Assembly (NCBI GenBank): GCA_002633005.1
Contig: NMRA01000123.1
Coordinates: forward strand, 646,656-710,655
From: Phoronis australis
Lineage: Eukaryota > Animalia > Phoronida
DNA: 64,000 nt
Direction of reading: 5' to 3'
In this document: piece by piece, positions 4,295 to 55,996 of the stretch
Layout of the letters: every line of letters starts with the position of its first letter
How positions within the stretch are numbered: the first letter of the stretch is position 1
The notes under the pieces: model-generated
Databases searched by the model: none
Told to the model about the DNA's origin: nothing
What the model saw: the letters and a program-made list of their open reading frames with translations, nothing else
Made by a program: the position numbers and the translations under genes

Positions 4295-4361
4295 ATGAAT
4301 TGTAGAATTTTCGTGACGGTTCATTTTCTAATACTGTTGTCGATAGGCGCTTCAGTTGGAG
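4295..4361 (+). CDS. Gene 1 exon 1, signal peptide
   Basis: MNCRIFVTVHFLILLSIGASVG then G|gtaagt donor, phase 1. Confidence 0.75.
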
Positions 4362-7316
4362 GTAAGTTCAGTTCTTGGGTAGGACGGTTTTCATGACTGC
4401 CAGCCCAATTGCGGCTACGAAGTAACATTGGGTAGTAGCGGTAATAGTGGCCATCCCCACGGGCAATCGTGACATGACAAAAGTCCTTTCGATTTAATGT
4501 CTGTATGGTGTTTTTTTTTTCGGTTTAACCTCCAGGTATCTTTAGGGTCGTCATGTGAGAAAGGCCGGTACGCGAAACGTGCTCGCGCCTTGTGGACATT
4601 ACATCTATACAGTCTCGATGGGATTAAAAACCAAAGAATTCTGATAACCGAGAGGTGGTTTGTGGCAGCATACAGTAGGCCTAAGTTAATCATAACACTC
4701 GACTCATAATGTGGCATCTCAGTTTGACAGCACCACGATCATATCATTTGTCCGGAATATGGAATTTTAAACGAGCACTAGGGTGTAAGTAAATAGGCCG
4801 TTACTATGGTAATGCGGTTTCAAGTTTTGGTTAACAGATCTTTGGAGTTGTAATTGCTTAACTGAGATTTAAGCTCGGTCTCTCTCATTTCGCAAGCCTT
4901 GGCTTTACCACTGCGCCAAGCGCACTTCACCGAACACAAAAGCTTTACAACGATGAGCGTGTTGACACGCAGTTTGTGATCGCTTTGGGACAAACCAAGT
5001 GACGTTTGTACATTGTTTTTCATTGAAAAGTATTGTTTTACGACTCAGTAGTTCCTTTGTTTACTGCAAGTATCTCCTAATAATCTTTCCACAGCGTTTT
5101 GGGTTAAATTGGTACCTGACTGATCGAACGTAAGTGATCGGCATACCGATTGAAACCGCTTAGCCTCTTGGCTGCTTCCATGAATTAGCTGATTTAAATA
5201 TAATGTAAATGGCAGTAATGGCATCGACTCCCTTGTTATTCGATACATGTTTACAGACTGAAAATCAACATATTGACTTCGGTGAAAGTCAATAATTGTA
5301 TTGAAACTTATTGTTGCCTCCCCCACGTTATATTCCGTGAACTCCAACAGACATTGCCGCCGGGCGACAATGTGCTGATATTAGTTTGGCACTTGGTATC
5401 GTTGTCGCACAGACGACAATTTGTGGGGCATGCGACAATATTTTTCACAATAGAGTTGCCGCCGATAACTGACTTTAATGTTTTAAAACATTCTCGTGTG
5501 CAAACTTTAGTAATAGTTTTGTCGCAAGTAACTTTCATTTCATTTTGATATCCGTGACCACTTAACATTAGGACTACCTGACATATTCAAGTCAGAACGA
5601 CTACCTTTATGCGACTCCAAGTTAATCGCTTTGTATTGTTGGAGGATTGTTTTTATTGATAGCACTCAAATCGCGAACACGGTAAAAGTGATCTTAATTT
5701 GAGAGGAAGTTTTACAACATCATTATATAAGCACCAAGCAGTTACTCAAGTATAGGAACAATTCAATTATGGGAGTAGCACCAACAAAATATATTTCCAA
5801 AGGTAAATTCAGTATAACAATGAATTGCAAACTTCTCGTAGAAATAGAATGCTTGCCACTTTTGTATTTCTTCCCAGAGACTACGTCCGTAGCCAGCCAT
5901 TACAACGGGTAGATGCTAAATTTTGATTAGCCGATCTTAAACTTTTCTCTCTCCACCCCTAGGGGAGTTGCTGGCTTAGTAACAAAATTGTTCCGGCTGT
6001 CCTTGGTGGCTCCTTGAACGGATTTCGGATACCGCTGGGCCTGCCTTTGCGCTGGTCGCTTACCTTTCAAGCAAAACTATATAAAACATGTTCCTCAAGA
6101 CCTTTATTTATGCCTAGACCTGTTTTAAACTATGGTGCAACAAGGACTTCACCTTATACAAAAAGTAAAACCTGATTTTTTTATTTCATCCTACTGGAAA
6201 ACCTTAAATTACCTAAATTACTTTAATTGGTTTAATTAATGTCACAATCAAGTTCAAACTAAAAAATAAACACATCAATTAACAAAGTTACTTTTAGCTG
6301 TGATCAAACTAAAAATGATGATAAAAGTTTCAGCAATTGTTCTTTGAAAATTTCGTAAGATGTCCAACTTCCTATAATTACGGAGACGATTTGTTACATA
6401 TGTAACCATAAATAGTTTAACAAAGAATTTAAAAATGAATTTCTGTAAAACATTCTAGAGTTGACTTAATGCATATTCATACTAGTTTGACAGTTTTTCT
6501 CAGCCAGAGAAAACAAATAGACTTATTTTTCATTGAAAATGTAATACTATATGCTCTATTTATTATAATAATTACCATCTTAAGTGTCAGTAAAATCAAT
6601 TTTTTACTTTTAACGTGTTTGTACAAGTTATCAATAATAATTGTAAATCAAAATAAAGCCTCCTGGTTATCACCTGAAACAGTAATTAAGCAGATATTGC
6701 GTGTCAAGCAATTTCAAAAAAATTACCCACATGAACTTTGACCTTGATTTGACCTTGATCTTGGTCTCAAATTTCCGGCAACCGACGCCCCTGAGATTCA
6801 GCGTGTCCCGCAGTATCTGTGTACCAACTTTGGTGCTTTAATCCGGGGTGTAAATGTTTTGGGGCTTTGGCTGCTAAGGAACTGGACTGAGTTGAATAAG
6901 GACGGGCATGGTTTTGCTAACTAGAAGGTTGCATATACATGTATACATTGTCATTTCAAATCAACAAGATGGGTTTCCAAACGAGGCAGTGGAACTATTC
7001 AACTGCCAACACGTTACAACATAAAATTGTTATCCTTGTTCTAAAAATGCCAAGAATTTCAAAAAATAAGCATTCTCATTGTGTCTTTAGAGCCATAGAC
7101 TAGTACATGAACTGCGGTTTGTTCTCAAAGCACAAATTATGTCATTTAACTTCAATTCAAATTCTAATGCAGCAACCTTAATTTTTCACTCAAACGACAC
7201 GTGGTGTTCAGACTTGAATTTCAAGGTAAGAAAGTATGAATTTGGGAATGCAACCATAGAAATTGGGATGTAATCCTTGTTTCTAGACACTTGACAAAAG
7301 TTTTAAAGGGATGTAT

Positions 7317-7364
<48 letters not shown>

Positions 7365-7458
7365 NNNNNNNNNNNNNNNNNNNNNNNNNNNNNNNNNNNN
7401 NNNNNNNNNNNNNNNNNNNNNNNNNNNNNNNNNNNNNNNNNNNNNNNNNNNNNNNNNN

Positions 7459-7519
<61 letters not shown>

Positions 7520-10500
7520 CTTTAAGTTGTGATCGCTTGGTTTCTACTTCGACTAAAGAGAGGGGTGGAATGCCGGGTTGTGAGGGAAGAAAGTACGGAG
7601 GGTGGAGGGTTGACACTAATTTTTAGCCCGTCAGAGGATAGAGAGAGGTAGAGAGATGTTGGGAGGGAACTGGAAGCAAGGAGGGAGGCACGGTGAGAGG
7701 GAATAATGGGGGAGAGATGGTCATCAGGTCAACATCACCTCATGGCGGAAATTGCGGTATAACTTTTAGTCAATCAGAGGACAGAAATACCAGTGATTGT
7801 GTAATAATTCATAGTTCGCAATGACGTATCCGTTGCCGGAAATTTCCTTGGACCGTGCGAGAAATTACATTGATTGTTACAACGATAGCCTACACTGGCT
7901 GCTAACAGTTGCTATATGTTTTTATCTTTAGATGGAAACATGAAATTAACTAATACGAAACTGTGTCTATTCTTCTATGCATTTAAGGCATTAACTACGA
8001 TTGCAATATCTGCTGTACCTTGCTGAGACGTCAAACAAACATCATGTCCATTTTCCACTGCACTCTTGTTAATTCGATAGTTCCAAGTTTGCTAGATGCA
8101 TGTCGTTGTCAAACCGATATGTAAGTTGTGGTATGGCACGTTGTCAGTATCTAAGTCACTTACTTTAAAGACCGTAGGTGAAATTTGAAGATCTCACCTG
8201 TTGTTCTATGTATTAAGTTGCAGACAGAGGGATATACGAGATGTGTAAACACACTGACACAGTCACGACGCCGGAGGGATACATAGTGAGTGAAAATTAT
8301 CCTTCATGGTGCGAAACATTCAAAGACTGCTACATGAATGTTGTTGCTCAAAAGAATGAGTTTCTGGAACTAAATATTGAAGAAGTTGACACCTGGAGAA
8401 CACTTATATTCTGCCATGACTGGATTTCAATACACGACATCGGACTTGCCTCGCCTCTGTTGCATAAAACTTGCGAACTGACCACAGACGGCGGCATGGC
8501 ATTAAAGTCTTCGTCTAACGCTGTGAGTGTTGCATTTCACAGCACCGTCTGGGGGCGATCTCCGTTGTGGGCCCGATATCGTTTCAGGATCCATTATAAA
8601 GGTTGGTATCCATACCATTATTCATCTTCTGATACATTAATCCGTTTTGACAGCAACAGTTTGCATTGTTGTAACTCTGCTGTCGTATTCTCGCTTTATG
8701 CTGTCTTTTTCAAAGTAAGAAATTTCTGGTTGTGCACATCTCAACTCACTAGCGAGAATAAAGACCAGGGCCCGGGGTTTAATCTTTGGGGTCGACATCG
8801 AACTTGAAATTGTTTTTGACGTTTTCCTTTCTTCTATTGTCGGTGTGAACTCAAAATATGTGCCTGCTGTTCTGTGCTCGAGTAAACTAAGACTTACACA
8901 GATTAGTTGATAATTGCCCCCATTCGCACTTACTGAGCCCTAGATTCGAGCTGAAAATTCGAGCAAAAGCTCGATATTTCGAGTACAATCTCTAAATTTC
9001 AAGTTAAAGTGTGAACTAGGATTAGCGAGTTGCCTACGTAAAATAGTGTACTTGAGTACTGGGGCTCGTTCCAACAAAACTGGTTTAGCTCAGACAAATT
9101 CTAATTTTTTGTAAATTTTAAGATAAAACTTAAATTTGTTCCAAGACCGTTTCAAGAAAGAGATATTGTGTTTGACTGTTGATTTGATTTACATTTTGTC
9201 TTAATTTTATCTATCTTACCGGATGTGGAAGTTTCAAAGTTTGGACATTAATACATATCTTAGACTTAAAAGTCAAAAATTATCTTAAAAGAGAAAGCAA
9301 CCTTTTTCATGTCATTTTTAGTAAAAAATACGGTTCGTTGTTTTTCAGTTAATAACGTCTTCCCGTAATTTCATTAATTAGTCGTGCCTTACTCTGGAAA
9401 TGACGTTTAGGGAGTTAAGAATTTCCCGCCATTTTGTTTTTTATATACTATGACTGTGTGAGCTGTCGAGTCAGTCATTATTTTACGTCGTTTGTGATAA
9501 GTTGTTCTTTGCGTTTGTTTTATAAGTCACTCAACATGCTGCAAGGGTGCTGCGTATTGGGTGTACTCATTGTCGTCTCACGCGCATTTTGGGAATGCCA
9601 TTAAATTGCTTTCCGAAAGATGACTCACTTCGCCGTACTTGGCTCGTTCGTGTGAAGAATTCAGCGTTACCTGTCCACGTAACAAAGTAGTTAAGAATTA
9701 CCGAGATTGTGCATTTTTGAAGCGAGAAGCCTCGCGAGCTGTGGTCTCAACTACTGTCACCCGCGCCTGCGAACGTACCCCCAAAGCATGCAATTCCGGG
9801 AAGTAGCAGTGGTTCGCCCTGTGCTGGTGTTGTCTTCAGCGCAGAGCCTGTAAGCAGCTCTGCAACGATGTTGAGTAGTGGGAGTGAGCACATGCCCAGC
9901 TCGACACCCGATGAGGATGATAGTTTGTCGTCCAGTGAACAGGCCGGTGAGCCAAACTTTGATAAGTTTATTGTGGACTAAACTAAAGTATTGGAGATAG
10001 TTAGATGGTGCCAGATTTGTGGCGAGGGAGTCACGCGGCGGGATGCAAGCCGTTTCGGTTCTCAGGCCACCAACAGCATAGGCATTCCATTGAGGTCGGC
10101 ATAACAGTGCACACCGTGCACTTGCAGCAGGAGGTCCCACCACGTTTGTCCTCAGTTTCTGCCTCATCTCTCTAAACAGCTGTCTCTGCTTATTCTGCCT
10201 CGGGTTCAAACTTTAACCACCCACCGACTTTTTGTGAAAAAATTCTCTCGTCACCACTCATATGAACAATGTCTCCGCCACTCACGTCACTGTGTATGTG
10301 ACATGGGTCGCCAATTCCAGCCATTTTCAGGCTACTACAAACTAAAAGATCCCTAAATCCAACGTAATTGAGTTCTCTTACTACCTAGCTTGTCGTAGAA
10401 TACTTGTCAATGGCAAGTGGTGACGACAATTTTAGAAAACCAGCACGAAAATAACAGTGGAAACAGATCCTCACAGTAAACTGGAACGCAGAAACAAAAT

Positions 10501-13500
10501 GGCGGGAAATTCTAATCCCCATAAACGTCAATTCCGGAGTAGGGCATCACTAATAAATAAAATTACGGGAAGCCGTAATATACTGATACATGTGTCTGGG
10601 ATAATCAACAGTAAAAATACTTGAAAAAGGTATCCTTCTCCTTTAAGTCAGATTCTTGGAAAGGGCCCCAGAGTAATAGACATTAACCTTGAACTCGCAC
10701 AGCAGTAGAACGGAAAATACCAAAATAATTTCTATTTCGAATAAAAAGAATAGATCGTGTCTTGGTGTCTTTTTCATGAAAGCGGCAAAAAAATTGTCTT
10801 GAGACGAGAAGACAGAACTTAGGTGTTACGCTCACACTTCACAGTTGCACAAAAGTGTTTAACCAAGTAATTATGAGCGTTCCACTAAACTTCAGAAATG
10901 TTTTGCAGGAATTATCTCAGAAATTAGCACTTATAAACGTATTGTATGCATTATTTCCAGAGATTACACTTTCGCTCAAGTAAAATTTCTCAACTTATTC
11001 GTGATACAGACATCTTGGTCTGGAATTTTACTATTGAACGAGAGCAAGAAAAATGCCTGTTATTCTGTGCATGAGAACAACATGTATTACTTGGATGAGT
11101 TTCTAATTCTGACATGCACTTGATGACCGGATTAGAGAAAACTAGACTCGTGTATTGAGTTTGCCCACTAGTAGAACGAAAAGGGTAAAAATAATTTCAA
11201 GAACAAACAATGGACCCCGTACGCGTTGATTAAGTAAAATTACGCGTAGATTAAACAAAAGTGCACGTTGATCAAGAGCAGAACGGCGATGGCTTAAGAA
11301 CTAAACGTACGCGTAGATTAAGCACATTTCTACGCGCAGAAAGATTCTCGTTTAAGAAGCTTGTGACGCTTCATAGTATGTCGTTGCGCTTGAAATTCAG
11401 TTGTAGATGCACACATCAACGCATGGTCTCGGTCGTTATGTTGCTTTCTTAAAGATCCCTTGGGAAATTTGGACGAATTTTCACCCTCAAGTTTGGCGCA
11501 CCTGAGGCGACAAATTTTCCAAATCCCAACTGGGGTCTAGATATGGGAAATTTGAAGTCTCGTCATGTAATAATGTATATGTCTAATTAACTTTGTCAGT
11601 GGAATCTCGCCTAAATATACTTTATTCAGCGATACCCAAGAAAGACCTCACCTCAACTTCAAGGAAACCATTTCCACAAACGATGGTATCTCCAAAGATG
11701 ACTACCACCTATAGCACAATAGCACACACCTCCGAGAAGTCAACCGAGATGCAAACGACAATTCAAACAGCTATCAACATCGATGATTCTGGACTTAATA
11801 CCTCAGAAAATCACGTGGAAGAAGGTTCGCAAATTTTCAGATTGATCTCAAAAAATTAGCTATCCGTTGTTACCAACGTCAAAAGCACTCTCTACTAAAC
11901 TTCCTTAAGGTGTGTAGCATTAACTTGTGTCTCATTTTTGTGCGCCCACATATTTATATGTGGACGCATTATGCCGTCATCTCCGTCCGTCCGTCCGGCG
12001 TCCGTCCGTCCGGCGTCCGGCGTCCGCTGCTCTATCTCCAAACGCCTTAACGTATGTTCATGAAATTTTGCACATGTGTTCCTTTTGTGGATGGGACGGC
12101 ATGAGCGAACTTTCGGACGGATCCGACTACCGGTGTCCCCCCTAGTGGCAATTTTAGTTTTTTACGTTTACCTCTTATCTTCAAAAGTCCTGAGCGGATT
12201 TTCATAAAATTTGGTATACAGGCACCTATTGGGGAGATGACGCTATCCTCCCGTTTTCGGGTGGATTTGACGTAGTTTGCGCCACCTAGTGGCCATTTTT
12301 ACTGTATTCGGTTCTGTTTCTTTGCGTCCACCCCTCTACCAACCAAACCGCTCAAAGGATTGGCATGTATGTTCTTACTATAAAGTGGACGGCTGACGAT
12401 GAATTTTCAACAAGCATTGGTGTATTAATTGTTAAATACGGCTATCCTTTGAGTGCCTCGAGTAGTGTGAGTTTCTCTGGTCTTACAATGTTTCCCCCCT
12501 CATGGTCACAGTTCAATTCCTCTCACCGGCATCGAATGAGATATCACGCTATGCGGGTTCAGCTTACTGATGTGTCTTACTATTGTTTATATAACACCTC
12601 TATGGATTACGGAATCGTCATTGGCATGTGCCTCCTTTTAGCTGGCGATGTTGAAGAAAATCCTGGGCCTGAAGACAATACTACCTTTAAAATCTTATTT
12701 TCAAATATGAACAGTATTAAATCCAACAATTTCTCCAGATTCCAACTTCTAAAAAACTTTGTTCTGTCTTACGATTATACGATTGTCGCTCTTTGTGAAA
12801 CTTGTAATATTACCAAAGACGACCTTGATAATGAACTAATCATTCCTGATTACAGTGTAGCGTATCACTGTAACAGTGGCCGTGGTATCATCTTATTCAC
12901 TAAAAACACACTCTCATTTGAATTATGTCCTAGCTTAACTTGTCCTCAGTTATGCAACTGCTGGATCGAAATTTATTTCGATCACAGAAAAATTTACTAT
13001 GGGTTGTTTTATCGCTCACCTTCTCAATCTCCAACTGAAAGAAAACTCTACTTCAAAGCCCTAGCCGATCAGTTAGCGGAACTTAACCGCAATAGCGTTA
13101 GTATAATCATAAATGGTGATTTCAATGCCCGAAACTCTACATGGTACAATGATGATCATGATAATACGGCCGGACTACAATTGTTTGATATTTTATTGTC
13201 TAATGACTGCATACAACTAATTAATGAGCCAACTCGTATCACCGACGTTTCTCATTCATGTATTGACCTCTGTATAACAAACAATTTGAGAATCATTGAC
13301 TCATGTTCTGTACTGCCTCCTGTTGGCAATTCTGATCACCACACTATCGAAACCACTCTTACACTTAAAAAACCGATTAATGAACAACACACCACTCGAA
13401 CCAACTGGAAATATGATCAGGTCGACACCGATAAACTGCGCCAGGATATCACCAACACTGACTGGGATTCCATATTGAACACTGGCGACATTGATGACAC

Positions 13501-16500: not shown

Positions 16501-19500
16501 TAAATTTAGTAAGTGAATTTATATGAAGATAACAGACGACAACTCAGGCGGATGGAACGGACGCTGTGCCCACAAGTGGCACTTTCATTTTGTTCTGTTT
16601 TCCTTTGTTTCTTTGAAGTTCCTCGGCAGATTTTTATGAAATATGACATGTTTCCGTTTTTGGATGGATTGTACGTTTTTGCGCCATCTAGTGGCCATTA
16701 ATATGATATAAATAACCCTAAAAGCACACAATTTGCGATACATTCGTGGTATTTCAACGCTCCGCGTTGCTTTTGTAAATAAAGTGTTTCTCACTCTCTC
16801 ATTTTAAAATTTGTGTCTTAACATTTCTGTTTTTAGCTAGAGTCAAGTGAAGATGAAGGAACACTTATTTTACTGCTATCAGTGAGTTTTTATCCACTTT
16901 TTCAGGAAATGGTTCCATAAGTTATTTGGTTGGTGGCATTGTCGGTGGTGTTGTCCTTCTCTGCGCCGTCATTGTTACTACTGTTATACTGAAAAGGTAC
17001 AAATTACATATTCGTTATTTATGAAAAGGGAATTACATAATACTAGAAAATAACAGTCCTAAAATCTTATGTCGATTTTATAAAATACAACATTAATAGA
17101 TAGTTGTCTCCACGCGACATCACTATTTACTAGCGGCGCCTAGTGTGATGGCTCATTTTACTTTCGGCAAGTACGTCGTTTGCTCACTAACCAGAAGATT
17201 TCATGGCATTGAACAGATAGGCTGCAGCCGCGGTCAATGTACACACTGCCGAAAATTAAATTCTACGGGTAAACCAGGTTTTGGGGAAAGTTTTTAGATA
17301 GACGTTGCGTGTCGGTTCAGTGAATTTTGTTTATTGTTATTTGTGAGCATGAAGGGAATGAGCAAAAATCACTTGTTCGGCTGTAAATCCACTTTTCTTC
17401 AAGATGGCGGCCCTCTATTTCATTTATGCGTTGTTGAGGAGAACTGAAGGATCGACTGCTTTTCAATCCAAAATGGCAAAAGTTAAAATGGTTCACAGCA
17501 CTTTTGAACCACATTTGCTTTCAGAATCAAATGTTGGCTTAGGTTGCGCATGGGTAAGGAAGTGATTTGCATGTAAAAATTTTAATTCTATTTTGCACTT
17601 GATGACCCACCATTAAAGCCGTAAGTTTGAGTTTGAACTCTGATCTTCGATTTTTTACTCGAAATTTTGAGTTTTTACTCAAGATTGTAGCTCGAATCTA
17701 GGGAAAATCAAGAGCGAATCTGGACTACACATTGGTTTATATGTACGTAATCCATAATATATTCAACCTCGGAATAATAGATAACTATCTGGAGTTCGTA
17801 CAAAAGAAAACAGTCACTGCCACAAAACGTACCGAGAGTGGCGTAGATGAAGTAATATCCCTCGAGACATTATTCCGTGTATCTATCGAGACCGAAGGTC
17901 GAGACCATAGACATCATAACACAATGATGTCTATGGTTTAACAGTTAACAATTTAATATAATACTATAAAATTCAGCCCGGAAACTGCAGTTAACATTTA
18001 GTCATTTCCATTGGTTGAAATCTGGGAAAAAACCCTTTCAGTTTTCTGTTACTTAGTATGCCGACCACCTTTGACTTGAGTAGTTGTAATTTATCAAAAC
18101 GGGTAGTGATTGCAGTAAAAAATTAAGGCAATGGCGGATCTAGGCTGTCATAAGGGAGCCCAACATTTCGTCTTGGGCAATGGCGCAAAATATGGTTGCA
18201 AGCGTGCTCCTAGCTTAACGTTTAGGGGTGCCCGAATTGCTTGGCGGACTAAAAAAACGAAAACGTTTGCACCGGTGGTCTCGATCGGACGCTTGTGATT
18301 GTGTCTGAGCCTTCCTCGAACACACCCACAAACACAAACTAAATCTGCACACATTGTTAAATCTTGATTTAACCCATGGTTAATTACCTGGATTAATTAC
18401 TAAACTCAATATTTCCACATGTACTTGCTATTGCTTTTTGCGGAAGCCAAGGAGGCGTGGACCCTCCCTAAATGCGCCTGTGCAAGGAACTCCGATCCAT
18501 TAGCTTAAGCCCAAACAAGTTCAGTTCATAGAAGGCGTGTGCAAGTGCTGGCGATGTGATCGGTAAACTTCCGACCAAGCATGCGTATTGATGCCCACAA
18601 ACGGAGTTCCGTGTGTCGTTCAGTATAGGTGGCGCTGTGTCAGAGGGTATCGAAAACCGAGACAGAAGTGTCATATAATTAGTAATTTTGTTCCAGATAT
18701 TACGTTTGGGAGCTGACTGTATGTTGAGTGTTATTTATACGGTTGCAATTTTAATACTTTAAACTATTTTGGGAAAGTTTGATCATTGAACTGGCTGACG
18801 ACGTCGAGTCGACATTGACCTACCTTGTGAACTTTCCGTGTCAGAGGGCACTGTTGAAGTAGTGCGGGAGGTGAATACGGAAAACAATATCTCATGGCAG
18901 TCGACTGGTTCAACGGGTATGAGATAAAATTTAGAGTTCGATTTCGAGTAAAAAGATTAGATTCCGAGCCCGGGGAAGTTTGTCCCGATGTTGTCTTTCA
19001 GAAAGTGACGACAGTAGCTTTATTGAATTTCATGGAGGGCAGGACTTGTAATTTATTTTTCAATTTCCAGGAAAAGAAATGAAGAGATTTCGGAAACGCA
19101 AACGCAGCAGTTTTCAAACGGAACTTACAGGCATGAGAGCCACTTGGATGATGAGAACGAACACAGCACTTTGTCTCAGACACCGAGTACTCCGAAAGGC
19201 AAGTCCATTGGTCAAGACGGTGTCTATGATTACGCCTGTACACCATTTCAAAGAAGTCAGCAAAAGAAAACACCGGAGCAAGGCGATGACGTGCAATGGA
19301 CAGGAAATGATGGTTATCATATGGAAGACGGATCCGCCGAGAATGACTCCCAGACAGATTGGGTGGATAACGATATTTACACTTCTGAACAATCAAATCA
19401 GTTAAAATTTGACGACATTCCGCAAACAAAATCACACGAGCAAGGCAGTGACGTTGATTCAACAGAGAACGACACTTCTAGTGTGGTGATTGCAGAGAGC

Positions 19501-19572
19501 GTGTCCGTTGAGGGCGTCCCTCAGACGGAATGGACGGAAAACGACATATACACCTCGGAAGAATCTAATTGA
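4295..19572 (+). CDS. Receptor gene 1: signal peptide-CUB(A)-mucin-like stalk-TM-Tyr-rich tail, ~410 aa
   Basis: Exons 4295-4361, 8224-8601, 11630-11824, 16906-16996, 19071-19572; all GT-AG, intron phases 1,1,1,2; total 1233 nt = 411 codons with no internal stop. Confidence 0.85.
7319..7520. repeat. (CA)n microsatellite spanning an N gap
   Basis: CA repeats on both sides of the N run. Confidence 0.95.
8224..8601 (+). CDS. Gene 1 exon 2, CUB domain (class A)
   Basis: YEMC...EGYIVSENYPS...DC...CHDWISIHD...KTC...SSSNAVSVAFHS...RFRIHYK: CUB pattern; ttgcag acceptor, gttggt donor. Confidence 0.9.
9289..10642. mobile_element. Non-autonomous Kolobok-like DNA transposon with THAP and KolX remnants
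   Basis: TTAA at both ends (9285-88, 10643-46); ~150 bp imperfect terminal inverted repeats; + strand decayed THAP (CCV.G...FPKDDSLRRTWLVRV, ~9536-9720); - strand KFEP...CCKCTVCTVMPTSMECLCC and RAAYR (~10215-9760), KolX/P2X7-tail-like. Confidence 0.75.
11630..11824 (+). CDS. Gene 1 exon 3, Ser/Thr-rich stalk
   Basis: AIPKKDLTSTSRKPFPQTMVSPKMTTTYST...DDSGLNTSENHVEE; tttattcag acceptor, phase 1-1. Confidence 0.8.
12409..15541 (+). mobile_element. Non-LTR retrotransposon (CR1/L2 group), ORF2 with 2A-APE-RT-Cys/His domain, disrupted
   Basis: APE motifs (NMNSI, ALCET, FYRSP, INGDFNA, PTR, CIDL, SDH); RT motifs (NYRPITLL, QFGF, FLDI); C-terminal CKCG..HIFFKCP; stop at 13712-14, frameshifts near 13940 and 14200; gap 14452-15001; AATAAA plus A-rich end; flanking acgatga(a)ttttc duplication (12396-12408 / 15542-15553). 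Confidence 0.92.
12626..12670 (+). other. 2A-like ribosomal skipping peptide
   Basis: MCLLLAGDVEENPGP matches D-[VI]-E-x-N-P-G-P exactly, just upstream of the APE domain. Confidence 0.9.
16906..16996 (+). CDS. Gene 1 exon 4, transmembrane helix
   Basis: GNGSISYLVGGIVGGVVLLCAVIVTTVILKR; ttttcag acceptor, phase 2 donor. Confidence 0.88.
18129..18482. mobile_element. MITE of the CAGTGGCGGATCTAG / CATAGGCGGATTTAG terminus family
   Basis: Ends caatggcggatctagg ... cctaaatgcgcctgtg; the same termini occur at 20011-20804, 21752-24061, 53046-53327 and 34229. Confidence 0.6.
18700..18930 (+). repeat. Interspersed repeat, copy 1 of 3
   Basis: Core ctttaaactattttgggaaagtttgat...gacgtcgagtcgacattg...gtcagagggcac shared with 34530-34960 (+) and 48765-49175 (-). 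Confidence 0.8.
19071..19572 (+). CDS. Gene 1 exon 5, acidic cytoplasmic tail
   Basis: RKRNEE...GVYDYACTP...QWTGNDGY...TDWVDNDIYTSEQSN...TEWTENDIYTSEESN*; tttccag acceptor. Confidence 0.88.
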
Positions 19573-24061: not shown

Positions 24062-24122
24062 GCCCTCTGTCGCTTGGAATCGGAAATGCCTGAAGCAACA
24101 AAAAGATTCTCTAATCTTTTAA

Positions 24123-28274: not shown

Positions 28275-28341
28275 ATGGCTAGTTGGTTGAAATCAAACCG
28301 TTTCATGGTTATGCTTTTGGCCACCACAATTCGAATTACCG
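28275..28341 (+). CDS. Gene 2 exon 1, putative signal peptide
   Basis: MASWLKSNRFMVMLLATTIRIT then G|gtaagt; same coding length (67 nt) and phase as gene 1 exon 1. Confidence 0.68.
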
Positions 28342-37108: not shown

Positions 37109-37155
<47 letters not shown>

Positions 37156-40783: not shown

Positions 40784-40921
40784 GTACCATCAGTTTCGAC
40801 CACTCTGGTCGTGTCTAAACTATTAGCTGAAGCAACACATAAGATAATTCCCATTTGAACAGTTATACGGCAGCGCCGTAGGAGGCGGGCACATGCTCTC
40901 CCCATCCCACCCCCAAAGCTG

Positions 40922-44780: not shown

Positions 44781-44841
44781 ATGAAGTTTTGGTTCTCAGC
44801 AAAGCATTTGATAGCGCTGGTGACCACGTTTTCATTTGGAG
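44781..44841 (+). CDS. Gene 3 exon 1, signal peptide
   Basis: MKFWFSAKHLIALVTTFSFG then G|gtaaga. Confidence 0.72.
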
Positions 44842-47800: not shown

Positions 47801-50800
47801 GTGATACCTGCGTGCTGGCTACCGACCACCTAGCGGCACGCAGGGAACCAGCGAATATGTATAAATTGCACTATCATTGTTCTACAAGACAGATTGACAG
47901 ATTTGTCATTGAAGAGGATACGTGCATACGTTACTTATAGATAACTCAATCTGTGTTTTTCAGAAACAACAATGCTCACGTTTGAAATATGCAACTCTAC
48001 TACATTGGACTTGCAAGATTATCCAATAGGATATGTAATAAGCCCCAATTTCCCGAACAACTATCCGAACGAGAAACGTTGCTCACTACTTCTGGAAAAC
48101 GAGAAATCTCAGAGAATCAAAATTTCGTTTGAAACATTTTTATTGGAACAAGACACTACCGACCCGTGTGGGCGAGACTGGATTCAGTGGTCTGTGCCTT
48201 CTGCTCTTGGTTCGTGGGAGTCTTCGAGATATTGTGGCAATAACACACCATTGAACACGACATTGCCTTATAACACGCATAAAATAACATTCGTGTCTGA
48301 CAAGTCTATCACTGCACCAGGTTTTAAACTGAGGTTTGACGGTAAGGACCTTTAAAAATCTAGAACTGCATGACTGAGTGGCTTAATCTTTTTTCTTTTT
48401 ATTGTGCTATTATTTCGATTATTGTTGTTATCATTATTAATGGTGTTGCTGTTGTTGTTGTTGTTGTTGCTTCTGTTACCATTGTTGTTTTAAAGTTATC
48501 TTTTGATGATGTTGATGCCATGACGCTAAAACGGCTTAACTTGCTTTGATACACAATAAAATGTAACAGGTTTGCAAAATGTGACAAATGTTTCGTTTTA
48601 TGTCATTGTTACATTTTACAATGCTAGGCCTCTCCTAAAATGTAACAAATTGTTACATTTTATGTAATTGTTACAATTTAGATGGAATGCACATACCAGA
48701 AATGTACACTGTTACATTTTATCCCATAAGCGTTGAATCTATCGAGGGAAATACGGCCATTCAATAGTTTTCCTTATTCACCTCCTGCACTACTTCAACA
48801 GCGACCTCTGACATGGAAAGTTCAAAAGGTACGGTCAATGTCGACTCGACGTCTTCAGCCGGTTCGATCATCAAACTTTCCGAATAAAGTTTAAAGTAAT
48901 ACAGTTGCAACAGTGTAACTAACACTCGACATGCAACCAGGCCCTAAATGTAAAATCTGGAACAAAAGTGTTAATTATAAGACACTTATGTCTCAGTTTT
49001 CAGTAGCTGAATAGGGCCTACTATATCGTCTGCAACTCAGGCACCGATTCCTAGGAAACTAAAATATCAAATATTGTTGTTTTTTTAACTATTTCCAGGA
49101 GATGTTACAAGTTCACTGCACAGCTGCCGTTGTTTTCATCTTTGCTACCTTTTTTCAAGAAATAAATAGTTACTTTTAAAACTGTTTATTTTACAAGAGA
49201 AAACTTGCAACCTAAAGCGCAAGTATAAGGATATAGGATGTGATCCGCCATGTGAACAGTCTGGGTGAAGTATTTGAAACGTCTGCCGAAAAATGTAAAG
49301 TACTTAGGGATTCGAAGCACGGGATAAATACAAAACGTGCCACTTTCGGTACGTTTTGTGTATTTACGAAAGCTACGTCATATTTCATGAGTTTGCATGG
49401 TATTTGTCACACGAAGGAAACGGTTCATACACTTAACGACTTCTTTCTCGGATTGTTTGAATGAAATTCTATCAAATGTGCCAGCTCGAATTTATAGGTG
49501 TGCTTTCCATTGCCTTTTTAACATAAGTCGAGCTTCTTTGTATAGTCAAAATATGTACCCTGTACAGTTTCAACAGAACAGTTTCCAGGATCAGGTAACA
49601 CGTTTTTATTGTTAGTGTTCTTGCAATCTTTTGTTGGCGCTCATGGGTCACACCTAATTGTGTGTCCGGCATTAGAGTAAACACACTTTCCTTGGTACCC
49701 TGTAAGCATAAAAGAAACAATAATTTCGTATTTAGGCTAATACTTATCGCATTTCTTCGAGAAAAAACGTCAATAACATTTTTATCATTGAGAATTCAAT
49801 TTGGGAAGCCAAATTGGTAGAAAAACACCCATTTTACTTTACGATAGTTTGATTTATTTCAGCCAGTGTTTCATTGCCTTGACGTCACGACAAATGCTCC
49901 ACACAACATAGACTACATGTAGATAAAAGTTTCTGATGCCGACGGGTTCTGTTTAACACCTTAGTTACGAACGATAATTTCTTAGTAACATTGTCAGTGG
50001 TGGAAGGAAATAAAAGCACGCATTTATTTGCGAGCAGGTTGACAGATTTTGCCAGTGCAACAACAAAAAATCGCTTTTATAAACGTGGCGGCATAGTAAT
50101 GTGTTTTAAACAGCTAAAAGCTGAAAGAAATATCATTGCTCGTATAGTGTCAAACCTGTTTGAAATAGTACTGGTAACAACTGATCAAGCTGTGACGTGT
50201 ATATGTAAAAATGGGAGGCCCAGATAGGAAAATAGAAATTTTTTTCTTGGACTTTTCGTATCTCAGAGGCGGACCTTTTTGCCCACTTCGCTGAATAGGG
50301 GGGTTCGAACGAGCCCCCTAAGACCCCCCTGGGTGCGCTCATGAGTTTTTGGGACTAGTATTACGGAAAACTGTATTTCTGTGATGTTACTCCCGTAATA
50401 ACGCTTATGTTTATGCGTATATCCGAACTCAACCTGGCTACAGTATAAACTCATGGATTTTATTTTAGAAAGTTTAGCAGATCTAGAGACACGTTTTGAA
50501 TAATTCACATGTGAAAAGGATTTCAGGCTTTCGGATACCTGAATTGGATCGGACGCGCGCAGACTACAAAGATAGGGCCCATTGCGCAAAATAGCGGATT
50601 TGGAACTCATGAGAATAAATAGTCATAAGACTCTTCCTGATAAAATTTGCAGAAGTCGGTAGCCATGTAGGTATCATGCATCTGTTTCCGCTTGTCCGGT
50701 CATTTCACTTCTACTCTGCCTTTAAAATTATATTTTTAGCTACAGATCATGCTACAAAGATTGACGACTTTGGGAAGACTGACATCAAGAATAGAACGGC

Positions 50801-53800
50801 AACGGAGAAATTTCGCAAACAACTTGTAGGATCGGGTATCTTGACAACAACTTTGAAAAGCAGCAACTTTCCAACACGGTTTGAAGACTCGGGTATCGTG
50901 ACGAAAACTTTAAGGAGGGGGGACTTTTTAACAGAGCCGCAAGAATCAGGTATCAAGAAGACAACTTTGGGAATGGGAGAGTCTTCAAGGCAAACTACAC
51001 CTCATAAAATGGGAAAGCAGATAGCGAAAGGTAAAGGACTCACCACCGTGGCATTGATACTCAGTAGCAGAGCGTGGTATGTGTAGGCATATCTGTTATT
51101 TCTCGACTAAATGCGCATAGGAATGGAAAAAATCCCCAACAAATCCGACAACTAAATACAGAACGCATATGATGCTACAAATATTCAGGAAGTAAATCAT
51201 TTTTACGCTTCAAATATGTTGCTGAAAATGGGGAAAAGTCTACCGCAATGCAAAGTTTTGACAACTACGAAGTGACATCCTGACGTACTGTATTTCGTGA
51301 GTTTTCAGCCATCTCGTTTTGAGCGAAATGGCGACATCTGTTTGTGCAGTGGCGTGACTACATGTCCCTCTTCCAAAGAAGACTAGTGGAAACTCTTGTA
51401 ACTAGAAGTGTGTTGTTACAAAAAGGCTACAGTAATAAAAATATTTTTTTCAGTCAATTGTTACGAGGAGAGCAAGCTGTCAAAAGAGACAAATGACAGG
51501 TGTGCCTCTGTAACAACGGACAACCTTATGAGTTGCTGAACGAGTTTCTTCATGTCAGTAATGTTGACATAGCATTATGATAAACTTGAACACGAAAAAG
51601 ACAACGACACTGACAACTTAACGATGAGTCGACAATGACACTGACATTCAGACAATGAATGATTGACACTATGGTATTGAAACTGAAATTGGCCGTTGCA
51701 ATGAAAACTATATTGGCAATGGGAGTGAAATGGCATAAACGACATTGACAAAGGCTATGACAATGTTGATGACGTTAAAAAACCATACTGCATCAATAGC
51801 ATCCTCTGACACAGCGCCACCTATACTGCAATTAGCACTGTGATAGAGTGTACATCAATAGCTGCTAATGAGAAAGTGTGAGTACAAATGTATTTACATG
51901 TACTGGCTACATAGGTTTTTAACGCTATTCTGACTTCTGTAGTAATTTGTTTATCTTTTAGAGGATGCTGCTGGTCGGAAGTACGGGGTTTATATTGGCA
52001 TAAGTGTAGCAGCTCTTACACTGGGCGCCATTGTTGTTGTCGGTGCTATAACAGTGAAAAGGAGGTGAGCATGTTTGTTTTCAGAAAGCGTTATTCCGCG
52101 TAATGGTGAAGTCTGTACAAAAATAGACCGACCTAGGAACCAGTCCCTAGGTGCGACTGATCTAGGGTTGTAAAGGGCACTAGTCTCGAAACGTACTAAA
52201 AAATAAGAAAATGGTATTTTTACAAGATTTTTTAAAAGTCTAACCGGTGGAATCAAGTCTAACGGGTGGAATAAAGTCCAACCGGTGGAATAAAGACTAA
52301 CCGGTGGAGTATGTGACGGAATGTTGTAGCCCAGGGATTCCTACGCCATGGTCCGCCACTTAGACCATCTACTGGGCGTCTTTAGCTGGAGCCTTAGTTC
52401 CAACTATGGTGAACGCTCCTAGTCAGCCAGGCGTGCGTTCAGTAGACGCTAGGACCTACGCTAGGACCTACCTAAAATCTAGTCAAAGTCACGTGTTCTC
52501 ATTTGAAATACGCGGCAATATCTCACGTAATCTCGTGAAGTTTTGCTTTTTAGCGAGGTACCAGCCTTACTGAACGGGAGGCAGTTTGGTCGCATAATTG
52601 ACCTTTGAACATAACTATGGTCTGCCCTGTAGCAGGCTCGTATAGTCACTAGATGGCGACCTCCGAGTAGTTCCAGGTAAACTGAAAGATTTCTTTGGTA
52701 AATAGGTGTTATTCACAATAAGTTGTTGCTAAATATTCAAAGTGTGTGTTTAGTAAAATACTAATAAGTGTAAAAATGTTCCACTTTTGCATGAGGGGCT
52801 ATCAAAATTAGGTTGAAACGAAAACGAAATGGTTATTTACAACAATGTTATAGCGTATTTAAGATTTCATCATGAACATTTATTTCTGATCAGTAAAATT
52901 TGATCATGTTGTTGATCGCGTTGTTCAGGTATAAAGCTAATTTTCCATTTTGCTAAATTTTAGTAAGAAGACATAGTCACGTGTCCCAGTTAATGGCAGA
53001 TTAGTGTAAAATCAAAAATCAAATTTTAAATATGTGGTACTTTTACATAGGCGAATTTAGGGGGGGGGCAGAGGGCCCGCCCCCACCCCCGCTCCTTGGC
53101 TGCCGCAAGAAAAATGAAAAAGCAACTGCGTGAAGCGTGAGGAAATATTGAGTACAGGACCCGAGATGGCGGCGGAATCGTGTTCCCTTTTTTTTCTTTT
53201 CCCACACCCACCCGACCCCCGCAACTTTCGGGCGCCTGTGCACATACACTTGCGCTTTTTCCAAATGCCCCGAGGTAACCTGTTGAGCCCTCCCCTCCCT
53301 CCTTATGGTATCCTAGATCCGCCACTGCTTTCCTGAGATAAATAATTGTATAGTTATGTAGATAGTTACAGTAGCTGAATGTACAGATTCGCCGATAATG
53401 CCTCACGTAAAGTTGCCCAATGTCTGGCTGTGTGAGTATACATTTAGGTTACTGCACGACATGAAACCGAAATTAAGAGTAGACAAGCCTTTTTTGTTTT
53501 CCTTTTTAAGAGAAGAAGCGTAAAGCCCCGTCTGTGCTCTGTAAACTGCTCTATACGATTATAATCGGAGTGTGCAGACATGCAAGTGTTCCGATTTGTG
53601 GTTGGAGACGGAGTACTTCCAACTTTGTAGTATATCTGAACTTAAAATGGCGTGCGACACAGTGGAACATGAACTTTCATGAGACAAAATTCATTATGTT
53701 AACTTCGATTCTCATGCGATTCACTGGTTCAGGGAACAGAGCAGTGATGTTTCTTCCAACCCACGTCCAGTTAACACCGGGAACCCTTTCATTTTTATCG

Positions 53801-55996
53801 TCTTAAATGATCCTCCCCAGTTATTTACACAGAGATGTGTAGAGTGTACCTGACAGAGATGTGCAGAGTGTAACTGGCAGAGATGTGTGGAGTGTAACTG
53901 ACAGAGATGTGTAGAGTGCAACTGACAGCGATGTGTAGAGTGTAACTGACACAGATGTGTAGAGTGCAACTGACACAGATGTGTAGAGTACATGTACAAC
54001 TGGCAGAGATGTGTAGAGTGTACCTGACAGAGATGTGTAGAGTGTAACTGACAGAGATGTGTAAAGTGTAACTGACAGATATGTGTAGAGTGTAACTGAC
54101 AGAGATGTGTAGAGTGTACCTGGCAGAGATGTGTAGAGTGTACCTGGCAGAGATGTGTAGAGTGTAACTGTCAGAGATGTGTAAAGTGTACCTGACAGAG
54201 ATGTGTAGAGTGTACCTGACAGAGATGTGTAGAGTGTACCTGACAAAGATGTGTAGAGTGCAACTGACAGAGATGAGAGTGTAACTGACAGAGATGTGTA
54301 GAGTGTAACTGGCAGAGATGTGTAGAGTGTAACTGGCAGAGATGTGTAGAGTGTACCTGACAGGGATGTGTAGAGTGTAACTGGCAGAGATGTATAGACT
54401 GTAGCTGTCAAAGTTCTATTGAGTGTAGCTGTCAAAAATGTGTCAAGTGTAGCGGTCAAAGATGTGTTGAGTATGGCTGTCAAAGTCGTTGAGTGTAGCT
54501 GTCAAACATGTGTCGAATTTTACAATCAAAGGTTTGTAGAGTGTAACTGACAAAGATTTGTCGAGTGTACCTGACAAAGATGTGTTGAGTGTAACTGTCA
54601 AAGATGTGTTGACTATAGCTGTCAAAGTCGTTGAGTGTAGCTGTCAAACATGTGTCGAGTTTAACTGTCAAAGATGTGTAGAGTGTAGCTGACAAAGATT
54701 TGTCGAGTGTAGCTGACAAAGATGTGTCGTATGTACCTTGCAAATATTTGTAGCTTGAAAAGATGTATCGAGTGCTCAGCATTGCTAATAGAACGAATAT
54801 TTCAACGGTCAACTCACGTCAAAGTTCTAAAACAAAAGTTCAGATAATTGACTCTGCAAACAAGTTAGTCAACAGTAGCAGTAGTAATGAAATGGTAAGT
54901 TTTATACCGTCTGGTATCGGACTAAATTCATAGTTTATGACTTTATTACTCTTTGATCTGTAAATTGCAAGTGATTACCATGTGTAATTATATCAACACC
55001 TGTGTTTTCTATGTTAATCTTATAAAGTTTCATATATTGCCTACTGATTTTGTCCCTCAGTTCACTGAATATTACAAGCTATTATCACCAATACTGCACA
55101 TAATTTAATCATTAATTTATTTGTATATAATGCTGCTCTTGTGCTCGTGATGCCTGTGCAGTATTTATGTGTCCGTATGCTTGCGTGCGCGTGCGTGTGA
55201 AGTGCGGGTGCGTCGGGTACTGTAAAGAAACTGGGGTATTTGTTAAAAAGCTTGTATTACTAATTAGTTCCCTGAAAAGACAACTAAAAATTGTTCATAT
55301 TCGAAGTCCTATAGAGATATTGAGGTGTGTGGACAGCGTTTAAGGGGCCACTTCACGTGTGGGAGTGGAGAGGTAGTTTTAAGGTGAAAGCCACTTAAGG
55401 GAAGACATTAGACATTTGAACACTTTAAAACGGCAGGGAATCTATTGAGATTTTTGCATTGGGTTTGATATAGAGTCTATTTAACAACGACTGCAACGAT
55501 ACTTCTTCCCTTACCTTGCCGCAAACAAAACTGAATAATACAGTCTCAGGAGTAAATAATGCGTTTTCTTTGGATGCTGCTTCTAAAGGCTGTGGAAGTT
55601 TCATTGTCCTTATCAAAAAATGTCTGATTCTTTACATTAAAGATAATCCATTTCAGAAAATGGAATAAAAATCTTGAAGCCAAGGAAGACAAACTGGTTG
55701 AGCGGGAAGACAGTACTTCCCTGAAAGAACTTGAAGGGAACTCTGAGGAAGGCGGATTTTACCACGACCTAGAAAGTCTAGACGGGCAATCTGTACCTGA
55801 TGATCAAGATAATCATTACGAATGCACTTCATTAAGTTACGAACAAACAGAATTCTGTGCTGCTTCTTCGCCTTTCAAAAAAGACATGGAAAAGGTCAAG
55901 GCCATTAAAAGTGAAGGAGATATCAACCTCGAAGCCGAGGCTGAACAGATAGAATGGACAGAGAACAGTTTTTATGACTCATTCAAACAGGTTTAA
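44781..55996 (+). CDS. Receptor gene 3: signal peptide-CUB(B)-stalk-TM-Tyr-rich tail, ~390 aa
   Basis: Exons 44781-44841 (alternative in-frame ATG at 44769), 47964-48341, 50740-51030 (alternative acceptor 50746), 51962-52064, 55657-55996; phases 1,1,1,2; total 1173 nt = 391 codons, open. Confidence 0.85.
46235..46475. repeat. ~32 bp minisatellite, about 7 units
   Basis: Unit aatggaacacacaaatgttacataatcacacc. Confidence 0.88.
47279..47853. mobile_element. ~590 bp TIR element, copy 2 (left TIR internally deleted)
   Basis: Co-linear with 26612-27202. Confidence 0.8.
47964..48341 (+). CDS. Gene 3 exon 2, CUB domain (class B)
   Basis: FEIC...GYVISPNFPNNYPNEKRC...ISFETFLLE...CGRDW...RYCG...ITFVSDKS...GFKLRF. 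Confidence 0.93.
48765..49175 (-). repeat. Interspersed repeat, copy 3 of 3 (inverted)
   Basis: Reverse complement of 34530-34960. Confidence 0.78.
50740..51030 (+). CDS. Gene 3 exon 3, stalk with three 19-aa repeats
   Basis: GSGILTTTL.. / DSGIVTKTL.. / ESGIKKTTL.. at 57-nt spacing; phase 1-1. Confidence 0.78.
51962..52064 (+). CDS. Gene 3 exon 4, transmembrane helix
   Basis: EDAAGRKYGVYIGISVAALTLGAIVVVGAITVKRR; AG|gtgagc donor. Confidence 0.85.
52236..52310. repeat. 19 bp tandem repeat, 4 units
   Basis: Unit aagtctaaccggtggaat(c/a). Confidence 0.85.
52428..52582. mobile_element. ~155 bp MITE-like repeat, copy 3
   Basis: Matches 3714-3866. Confidence 0.75.
53046..53327. mobile_element. 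MITE of the CATAGGCG / CCGCCACTG terminus family
   Basis: cataggcgaatttaggggg ... cctagatccgccactg. Confidence 0.7.
53826..54770. repeat. 24 bp minisatellite, ~39 units
   Basis: Unit acagagatgtgtagagtgtaactg; homogeneous to ~54390, more diverged afterwards. Confidence 0.93.
55657..55996 (+). CDS. Gene 3 exon 5, acidic cytoplasmic tail
   Basis: Manual translation (absent from ORF track): RKWNKNLE...EEGGFYHDL...DNHYECTSLSYEQ...EQIEWTENSFYDSFKQV*; tttcag acceptor, phase 2. Confidence 0.85.

What the first reader, a model, noticed from the sequence alone, without database searches (positions are those of the whole stretch)
4295..55996. Tandem cluster of three diverged CUB-stalk-TM-phosphotyrosine receptors
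Seen: three co-oriented, open genes with the same exon logic (signal exon, one exon per CUB, stalk exon, TM exon, tail exon; phases 1...1,2), very diverged in sequence yet all intact. Known: CUB membrane proteins such as CDCP1, DCBLD1/2, NETO and neuropilin carry more or different domains, and the layout of recognition domain + mucin stalk + Tyr tail is used by TIM proteins with an IgV domain. I do not recognise a named family with this CUB version. Inference: a lineage-specific, diversifying receptor family (immune, allorecognition or adhesion) that signals through tyrosine-kinase adaptors.
Basis: partly seen in the sequence, partly recalled or inferred. Interest (0 to 1): 0.85.

Follow-up and report, generated by a model that had tools for sequence, protein, structure and literature searches.

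The report
Orphan CUB receptors with RET-like motif
Three neighbouring animal genes are predicted to encode small cell-surface proteins with one or two CUB outer domains; their inner tails share a repeated tyrosine motif resembling the adaptor-docking site of the RET receptor, so they likely signal through PTB-type adaptor proteins, though binding is untested.

Summary
Observation confirmed. Three + strand gene models (410, 571 and 390 aa) are open, with 13 of 13 introns GT..AG and phases 1..1,2. All four CUB exons pass Pfam's cut-off. RNA reads show one junction exactly (gene 1, CUB to stalk, 7 reads); that is 1 of the 10 predicted junctions laid. Two additions. (1) The CUBs are of two types: A (gene 1; gene 2 first) lacks the calcium-binding signature, B (gene 2 second; gene 3) keeps it, so gene 2 carries one of each. 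(2) The tails hold W-x-x-N-x-x-Y six times (0.02 expected after shuffling), matching RET's PTB-docking site; no ITIM, ITAM or ITSM. No close relative was found. The copies are old, with dN below dS; nothing supports rapid diversification or an immune role. Best reading: kinase-less receptors that likely dock PTB adaptors. This scan has reported similar orphan CUB or NxxY-tail receptor clusters on other DNA (e1-7857203, e1-9258336, e1-8576851). A new variant of a known design, of moderate interest.

The parts
4295..4361 (+). Gene 1 exon 1, predicted signal peptide (phase 1)
   Evidence: ATG, hydrophobic core, GAG|GTAAGT donor
8224..8601 (+). Gene 1 exon 2, type-A CUB domain (lacks the calcium signature; five cysteines)
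   Evidence: Pfam CUB 35 bits; model pLDDT 88.4 with CUB structures as Foldseek hits; donor seen in RNA
11630..11824 (+). Gene 1 exon 3, Ser/Thr-rich stalk
   Evidence: 32% S+T; acceptor seen in RNA
16906..16996 (+). Gene 1 exon 4, predicted transmembrane helix (phase 2)
   Evidence: hydropathy 2.7, G-G-x-x-G-G, basic residues after
19071..19572 (+). Gene 1 exon 5, acidic tail with three W-x-x-N-x-x-Y motifs (starting 19297, 19360, 19531)
28275..28341 (+). Gene 2 exon 1, predicted signal peptide
   Evidence: only strict candidate between gene 1 and CUB-a; run X3 has reads in this bin
29301..29663 (+). Gene 2 exon 2, type-A CUB (42% identical to gene 1 CUB; lacks the calcium signature)
   Evidence: Pfam 47 bits
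32544..32918 (+). Gene 2 exon 3, type-B CUB (41% identical to gene 3 CUB; keeps Tyr-Glu-Asp-Asp)
   Evidence: Pfam 72 bits
36141..36434 (+). Gene 2 exon 4, Ser/Thr-rich stalk
   Evidence: 32% S+T
37829..37922 (+). Gene 2 exon 5, predicted transmembrane helix (45% identical to gene 1's)
   Evidence: hydropathy 3.1
40261..40783 (+). Gene 2 exon 6, acidic tail with 12 tyrosines and two W-x-x-N-x-x-Y motifs (starting 40538, 40739)
44781..44841 (+). Gene 3 exon 1, predicted signal peptide (a second in-frame ATG at 44769)
47964..48341 (+). Gene 3 exon 2, type-B CUB (keeps Tyr-Glu-Asp-Asp)
   Evidence: Pfam 65 bits
50740..51030 (+). Gene 3 exon 3, stalk with three 19-residue internal repeats
   Evidence: 24% S+T; repeats
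51962..52064 (+). Gene 3 exon 4, predicted transmembrane helix
   Evidence: hydropathy 2.5, basic residues after
55657..55996 (+). Gene 3 exon 5, acidic tail with one C-terminal W-x-x-N-x-x-Y motif (starting 55955)

Best explanation
The window holds three old tandem gene copies predicted to encode kinase-less, single-pass surface receptors whose CUB domains likely bind outside partners and whose shared W-x-x-N-x-x-Y tail motif likely docks PTB-domain adaptors (Dok, FRS2 or Shc type) once a separate tyrosine kinase has phosphorylated it. Shown: the exon anatomy, the CUB identity, one spliced junction, the two CUB types and the repeated motif. Inferred: the stalk holds the CUB away from the membrane; type-B CUBs would bind calcium and basic protein ligands as cubilin-type CUBs do, type-A CUBs would bind without calcium; ligand binding or clustering would let a Src-family or receptor kinase phosphorylate the tail; one to three motifs per tail would set how many adaptors load. 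Whether the output activates (Shc/FRS2) or dampens (Dok1/2-RasGAP) cannot be told.
For: Motif six times in three tails against 0.02 in shuffles, 0 of 20000 reaching it (pattern chosen after seeing the data). It is the only invariant block of otherwise 24-33% identical tails and always includes a copy 5-8 residues from the C-terminus. RET's Y1062 lies in W-I-E-N-K-L-Y (PMC13096542, passage) and is a consensus PTB site bound by Dok1-5 (PMC2150770, start of abstract, passages); gene 2's inner motif matches it at 5 of 7 positions. In CD200R the N and Y of NxxY are conserved and the P is not, and Y297 recruits Dok2 (PMC8007030, abstract and passages). No kinase or other Pfam domain above cut-off in the tails. 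No further ectodomain exon among 182 intronic reading frames scanned. Calcium signature columns kept in type B, lost in type A (signature from PMC10850435, passages). Gene 1 is spliced as predicted at one junction.
Against: No binding, phosphorylation or ligand data. PMC8007030's abstract says NPxY motifs mostly mediate trafficking rather than signalling. I found no paper giving a role to the tryptophan at -6; that it matters for Dok/FRS2 binding is recalled only. Only 1 of 10 junctions laid was listed; expression in these samples is low, gene 3's first-exon bin has almost no reads, and one contig of run X4 reads through gene 2's CUB-b acceptor unspliced. The organism's PTB adaptors could not be examined (no genome).
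Confidence: 0.55

Rival explanations
1. They are uptake or sorting receptors: the CUB captures cargo (calcium-dependent in type B, as in cubilin) and the N-x-x-Y motif is a phosphorylation-independent internalisation signal for endocytic PTB adaptors.
For: NPxY motifs mostly serve trafficking (PMC8007030). Cubilin is the best solved-structure sequence match of both CUBs searched (it has several CUBs, which adds to its score). SEZ6L hits combine CUB domains with a tail NPxY.
Against: None of the six motifs has the proline of NPxY; the tails are long, acidic and carry further tyrosines (Y-[DE]-Y three times, 31 of 20000 shuffles), which looks more like a signalling scaffold.
Confidence: 0.2
2. 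They are a fast-diversifying immune or allorecognition receptor family, with polymorphic CUB domains reading self or foreign surfaces.
For: Tandem cluster, recognition domain on a stalk, tyrosine tail; CD200R shows that an immune receptor can signal by NxxY without an ITIM. No conserved orthologue found.
Against: Only three copies in the window; divergence is old with dN below dS; no decayed extra copy in the window (tblastn); no ITIM/ITAM/ITSM; no allele or tissue data.
Confidence: 0.12
3. They are accessory subunits or co-receptors that bind another membrane protein through the CUB domain, as NETO1 does for glutamate receptors, with the tail linking to scaffolds.
For: CUB single-pass proteins do this (PMC2652390, title and start of abstract in the listing); G-G-x-x-G-G in the transmembrane segments of genes 1 and 2 could pack against another helix (inference).
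Against: No LDLa or other NETO-type domain; identity to NETO2 CUBs no better than to other CUBs.
Confidence: 0.07
4. The models are partly wrong or one gene is silent: exons could be joined otherwise (for example gene 2 skipping one CUB), or gene 3 is an intact-looking but unexpressed copy.
For: 9 of 10 junctions laid were not listed and three of gene 3's were never laid; three donors are weak (GTTGGT, GTTCGC, GTTCGT); phase-1/phase-1 CUB exons can be skipped in frame.
Against: The weak GTTGGT donor is the one seen in RNA; all frames are open despite near-saturated synonymous divergence; joint tables were truncated and need 3 reads.
Confidence: 0.06

Closest known systems
CDCP1 (CUB domain-containing protein 1)
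   Same: Kinase-less single-pass CUB protein whose tail tyrosines are phosphorylated by Src-family kinases and dock signalling proteins (PMC4395315, passages).
   Different: CDCP1 docks through Y734/Y743 in an ITAM-like YxxI/L pair, absent here; no CDCP1-type Pfam model hit these exons; CDCP1 has a larger multi-CUB ectodomain (recalled).
CD200R1
   Same: Small ectodomain, one TM, acidic tail signalling through an NxxY motif and the PTB adaptor Dok2, without ITIM (PMC8007030).
   Different: CD200R has Ig domains (recalled), one NxxY and the mammalian motif EEDExxPYxxYxxKxNxxY; here CUB domains, a stalk, and one to three W-x-x-N-x-x-Y copies.
RET receptor tyrosine kinase, Y1062 docking site
   Same: W at -6, acidic at -4, N at -3, hydrophobic at -1 around a tyrosine near the C-terminus; a PTB site.
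   Different: RET has its own kinase and cadherin-like ectodomain (start of abstract, PMC7619074); these proteins have neither. The likeness is a seven-residue motif, not homology.
SEZ6/SEZ6L, NETO, neuropilin, DCBLD (CUB single-pass proteins)
   Same: CUB ectodomain, one TM; SEZ6L hits carry a tail NPxY.
   Different: These have extra domains (sushi in the SEZ6L hits; LDLa, FA58C, LCCL, MAM in the others, recalled), not found here; CUB identity of the SEZ6L hits is 27-30%; 0 of 32 hits carry W-x-x-N-x-x-Y.
TIM family (HAVCR1/2)
   Same: Recognition domain, mucin stalk, TM, tyrosine tail layout (recalled).
   Different: IgV there, CUB here; no Ig hit in any exon.
Calcium-binding CUB (cbCUB) domains of cubilin, MASP, C1r/s, PCPE
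   Same: Type-B CUBs keep the Tyr-Glu-Asp-Asp signature.
   Different: Type-A CUBs have lost the Glu and the last Asp; cbCUB binding usually needs several CUBs for avidity, and these proteins have at most one type-B CUB.

Membership tests
CUB domain (PF00431) | Profile score above the curated cut-off; beta-sandwich fold | tested here: met
   4 of 4 exons above 21.4 bits; gene 1 CUB model pLDDT 88.4, listed Foldseek hits are CUB-bearing structures
Calcium-binding CUB (cbCUB) | Tyr-Glu-Asp-Asp signature, type-B domains (gene 2 CUB-b, gene 3) | tested here: met
   All four residues align with cubilin/neuropilin columns; which columns form the signature is assigned from the alignment and from recall, the paper passage gives only the four residues
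Calcium-binding CUB (cbCUB) | Tyr-Glu-Asp-Asp signature, type-A domains (gene 1, gene 2 CUB-a) | tested here: not met
   Glu and last Asp absent in both, Tyr replaced by Cys in gene 1
CDCP1 | ITAM-like YxxI/L pair (Y734/Y743) in the tail | tested here: not met
   0 of 3 tails match an ITAM pattern
CDCP1 | CDCP1-type CUB profiles | tested here: not met
   No CDCP1 Pfam model among hits at E up to 0.1
NETO / neuropilin / DCBLD / SEZ6 / LRP12-type CUB proteins | Additional LDLa, FA58C, LCCL, MAM or sushi domains | tested here: not met
   None in the stalk exons or in 182 of 182 open frames of 36 aa or more in the ectodomain-side introns; N runs in gene 1's introns 1 and 3 unreadable
TIM family | N-terminal IgV domain | tested here: not met
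   CUB, not Ig
TIM family | O-glycosylated mucin stalk | tested here: inconclusive
   S+T 32%, 32%, 24%, few prolines; glycosylation not testable
ITIM/ITAM/ITSM immunoreceptors | Canonical immunoreceptor tyrosine motif | tested here: not met
   0 matches in 3 tails
PTB-docking (NxxY) receptors such as CD200R and RET | N-x-x-Y motif in the cytoplasmic tail | tested here: met
   7 N-x-x-Y, 6 with W at -6
PTB-docking (NxxY) receptors such as CD200R and RET | Phosphorylation of that tyrosine and binding of a PTB adaptor | not testable with these tools
   Needs biochemistry; no PTB protein of this organism was available
Allorecognition receptors | Extreme allelic polymorphism in the ectodomain | tested here: inconclusive
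   Read depth over exons too low; listed variants fall mostly in repeats

The most novel reading that the evidence does not exclude
An undescribed invertebrate receptor family that couples minimal CUB ectodomains, built by mixing a calcium-binding and a calcium-free CUB module, to a RET-Y1062-like PTB docking motif whose copy number (one, two, three) tunes signalling: a kinase-less, non-Ig counterpart of CD200R, possibly acting in self-recognition, and one case of a widespread invertebrate route of receptor signalling through NxxY rather than ITIM/ITAM.
Probability: 0.25. Interest if true: 0.65.

Novelty: new variant of a known kind. Interest (0 to 1): 0.4.

Why it matters
Invertebrate surface receptors are usually mined for ITIM and ITAM motifs. 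These genes have neither, yet keep one short tyrosine motif across old paralogs whose tails are otherwise barely alignable, and the motif mirrors a well-studied vertebrate PTB docking site. That gives a direct test (peptide pull-down with Dok, FRS2, Shc, Dab PTB domains) of how orphan invertebrate receptors signal. The A/B CUB mosaic is a small natural example of swapping ligand-binding chemistry on a fixed signalling tail. The parts are all known and the ligand and tissue are not, so the interest is moderate.

Tried and rejected
No whole genome is held, so family size and orthologues could not be examined. No RNA holder was listed by the index; three raw-read RNA runs and one contig run came by species label. 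The lay over 28250-48249 at 90% likeness was swamped by repeats and listed none of its 6 predicted junctions, 16 joints not shown; the lay over 4100-19900 listed 1 of 4, 8 joints not shown; gene 3's last three junctions were never laid. Gene 2 tail search: 0 hits among 361 candidates. CUB profile search: 32 hits, at most 36% identity, none with this layout. Tail profile against 1.84 billion representatives: 1 hit, a bacterial repeat-bearing metalloprotease by Pfam, rejected as chance. ESM Atlas on gene 2's tail: best score 0.84, lead only; the Atlas gave no answer for CUB-a. Metagenome scan: 38 pattern matches, none confirmed. A search with the neighbouring permease exon, meant to place the animal group, found nothing; the group stays undetermined. 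Tree of 57 CUBs: A pair and B pair each group, the backbone is unresolved, and one clade for all four is neither found nor rejected (p-AU 0.31); 53 of 147 database CUB stretches were used (three near-duplicate Ciona isoforms and 11 SEZ6L-type proteins dropped, at most 4 per protein). Paper searches for a description of this family listed 4 and 2 papers, none about it by title or abstract start; none was read. Searches for the Dok/FRS2 consensus gave 0, 1 (an SH2 review, not read) and 0 papers. A possible small exon near 5878 was dropped because it would not keep the frame (sequence read directly). No complex prediction was run. No supplements were read.
Full report
What was checked. The window is animal-like DNA (about 40% GC; CpG observed/expected 0.92; introns; retrotransposons). 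No genome is held and the animal group was not determined. I read the sequence, listed open frames and fixed exon borders by script.

Gene 1: 4295-4361, 8224-8601, 11630-11824, 16906-16996, 19071-19572 (410 aa). Gene 2: 28275-28341, 29301-29663, 32544-32918, 36141-36434, 37829-37922, 40261-40783 (571 aa). Gene 3: 44781-44841, 47964-48341, 50740-51030, 51962-52064, 55657-55996 (390 aa). None has an internal stop. All 13 introns are GT..AG with pyrimidine-rich acceptors, and phases run 1,1,(1),1,2. The four CUB exons pass Pfam's cut-off. The most divergent one, gene 1's, folds at pLDDT 88.4 from an 11-row alignment and matches solved CUB domains. Each gene has a hydrophobic N-terminus, a transmembrane peak followed by basic residues, and an acidic tail, the anatomy of a type I membrane protein (inference). 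To look for missed outer domains I scanned all 182 open frames of 36 aa or more in the ectodomain-side introns (of 232 intronic frames; the 50 in the last introns were not scanned): two hits belong to a LINE and one is a below-cut-off match in an intron that RNA shows is spliced out. A tblastn of the 16 exon parts against the window found no fourth or decayed copy.

RNA. The index listed no RNA holder; four runs came by species label. In the lay over gene 1, reads join 8601 to 11630, exactly the predicted CUB-to-stalk intron, in 2, 1 and 4 reads of three runs, all with the first mate on the minus strand, which fits a + strand RNA in the usual stranded library. That is 1 of 4 junctions in that lay. 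The lay over gene 2 and the start of gene 3 listed 0 of 6. Both joint tables were truncated and need three reads, and exon depth is about 1x, so the blanks say little. Bins holding gene 2's exons 1, 2, 4 and 6 show thin, one-strand depth, but intron and intergenic bins have depth too, so I give this little weight. Against the models: gene 3's first-exon bin has almost no reads, and one contig of run X4 (which may be DNA) crosses gene 2's CUB-b acceptor unspliced. Allelic variation in exons could not be measured.

Two kinds of CUB. Gene 1's CUB and gene 2's first CUB are 42% identical (type A); gene 2's second and gene 3's are 41% identical (type B); across types 22-27%. Both pairs group in a tree of 57 CUBs (A 100/99; B 98/79 as drawn). 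One clade for all four is neither found nor rejected (p-AU 0.31). All four share an N-terminal [FY]-E-[IM]-C lead-in; a slightly wider pattern matched in 3 of 147 database CUB stretches, all in one protein and apparently in the domain before the CUB, which hints at a common origin. Calcium-binding CUBs carry a Tyr-Glu-Asp-Asp signature (PMC10850435, passages; PMC10214685, passages). Aligned to cubilin and neuropilin, type B keeps all four residues and type A lacks the Glu and the last Asp (column assignment partly recalled). Gene 2 resembles gene 1 in CUB-A and transmembrane exon (45%) and in having an inner as well as a terminal tail motif, but carries a gene-3-like CUB-B. Either an A+B ancestor lost one CUB in each flanking gene, or a phase-1 CUB-B exon entered a gene-1-like copy; the data do not decide.

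Age and selection. For the closest pairs, crude counts give dN 0.54 / dS 1.54 (type A), 0.75 / 1.73 (type B) and 0.52 / 1.17 (TM of genes 1 and 2). Synonymous sites are near saturation and the alignments were made on protein likeness, so the ratios are rough. They fit old duplicates under constraint and give no sign of a recent or positively selected expansion.

The tails. The tails are 24-33% identical, and the only invariant block is E-W-T-x-N-x-x-Y-x-S close to the C-terminus. The looser form W-x-x-N-x-x-Y occurs three times in gene 1, twice in gene 2 and once in gene 3; shuffled tails give 0.02 on average and 0 of 20000 reach six (the pattern was chosen after seeing the data, and paralogy accounts for part of the sharing). 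In six-frame translation of the window the strict form occurs five times, all in these tails. There is no ITIM, ITAM or ITSM. RET's Y1062 sits in W-I-E-N-K-L-Y (PMC13096542, passage) and is a consensus PTB site that binds Dok proteins (PMC2150770, start of abstract and passages). CD200R signals through an NxxY whose proline is not conserved, recruiting Dok2 and RasGAP, without an ITIM; the same paper notes that NPxY motifs mostly serve trafficking (PMC8007030, abstract and passages). I found no paper on the role of the tryptophan; that it matters is recalled.

Relatives. None close. The gene 2 tail found nothing; a tail profile against 1.84 billion representatives found one chance bacterial hit; the CUB profile found 32 proteins of at most 36% identity (cubilin-, CDCP2-, SEZ6L-, BMP1-like and unnamed), of which 0 of 32 carry the tail motif; the metagenome scan confirmed nothing; the Atlas gave only weak leads. 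The window's own proteins did not appear either, so this lineage seems poorly covered and the blanks do not prove that the family is narrow. Two paper searches for such a family listed nothing about it by title or abstract start; the library lacks most subscription journals.

How it likely works. Best reading (0.55): kinase-less receptors; the CUB binds an outside partner, calcium-dependently in type B; a separate kinase phosphorylates the tail; PTB adaptors dock on the W-x-x-N-x-x-Y sites. Shown are the anatomy, one splice, the CUB types and the motif; every binding and phosphorylation step is inferred. Rivals: uptake receptor with phosphorylation-independent PTB adaptors (0.2), fast-diversifying immune or allorecognition family (0.12), accessory subunit of another membrane protein (0.07), partly wrong models or a silent gene (0.06).

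Comparison and novelty. It works most like CDCP1 outside (PMC4395315, passages) and CD200R or RET Y1062 inside, and fails the membership tests for CDCP1, NETO/neuropilin/DCBLD/SEZ6, TIM and ITIM/ITAM receptors. Earlier reports of this scan on other genomes describe three orphan CUB receptors with a different tail motif (e1-7857203), an abalone lectin-CUB receptor with (E/D)NDxY motifs (e1-9258336) and sea-squirt receptors with repeated NxxY (e1-8576851); these are unchecked notes and are not counted as support. The last one gave me the CD200R comparison, which I then read up; the RET/PTB reading predates it. Verdict: real genes, a new variant of a known design, interest 0.4.

Noticed in passing
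window:666-890 and 1429-1569 (+): Exons of an SLC23 / xanthine-uracil permease gene (Pfam PF00860) just upstream of gene 1; the second has an in-frame stop at 1462-1464, so it is likely a pseudogene or an assembly error.
   Followed up: partly
window:12290-15307 (+), in gene 1 intron 3: A LINE-type retrotransposon (endonuclease and reverse transcriptase by Pfam), broken by a stop, frameshifts and an N gap. Its frame carries D-V-E-E-N-P-G-P at 12647-12670 ahead of the endonuclease, which resembles a 2A ribosome-skipping peptide (motif recalled). Related copies are present in the RNA runs.
   Followed up: partly
window:59152-60685 (+): Reverse transcriptase plus GIY-YIG pieces, the layout of a Penelope-like element (name recalled), split over several frames.
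   Followed up: partly
window:1744-3717: A tandem duplication of about 990 bases, 96-98% identical, just upstream of gene 1; a recent duplication or an assembly artefact.
   Followed up: no
window:26041-26370 (-), with an inverted copy near 57040-57900: THAP-domain fragment in a repeat present twice in opposite orientation.
   Followed up: no
window:3714-3866, 32214-32366, 52430-52582: A 150-base interspersed repeat, three copies here, very abundant in the RNA runs.
   Followed up: no
window:53721-54760 and 46233-46502: Minisatellites of 24 and 32 bases in gene 3's introns 4 and 1.
   Followed up: no
window:50740-51030 (+): Gene 3's stalk holds three 19-residue repeats centred on S-G-I.
   Followed up: partly
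window:8224-8601 and 32544-32918 (+): Gene 1's CUB and gene 2's CUB-b each have a fifth cysteine that could form an interchain bond; untested.
   Followed up: no
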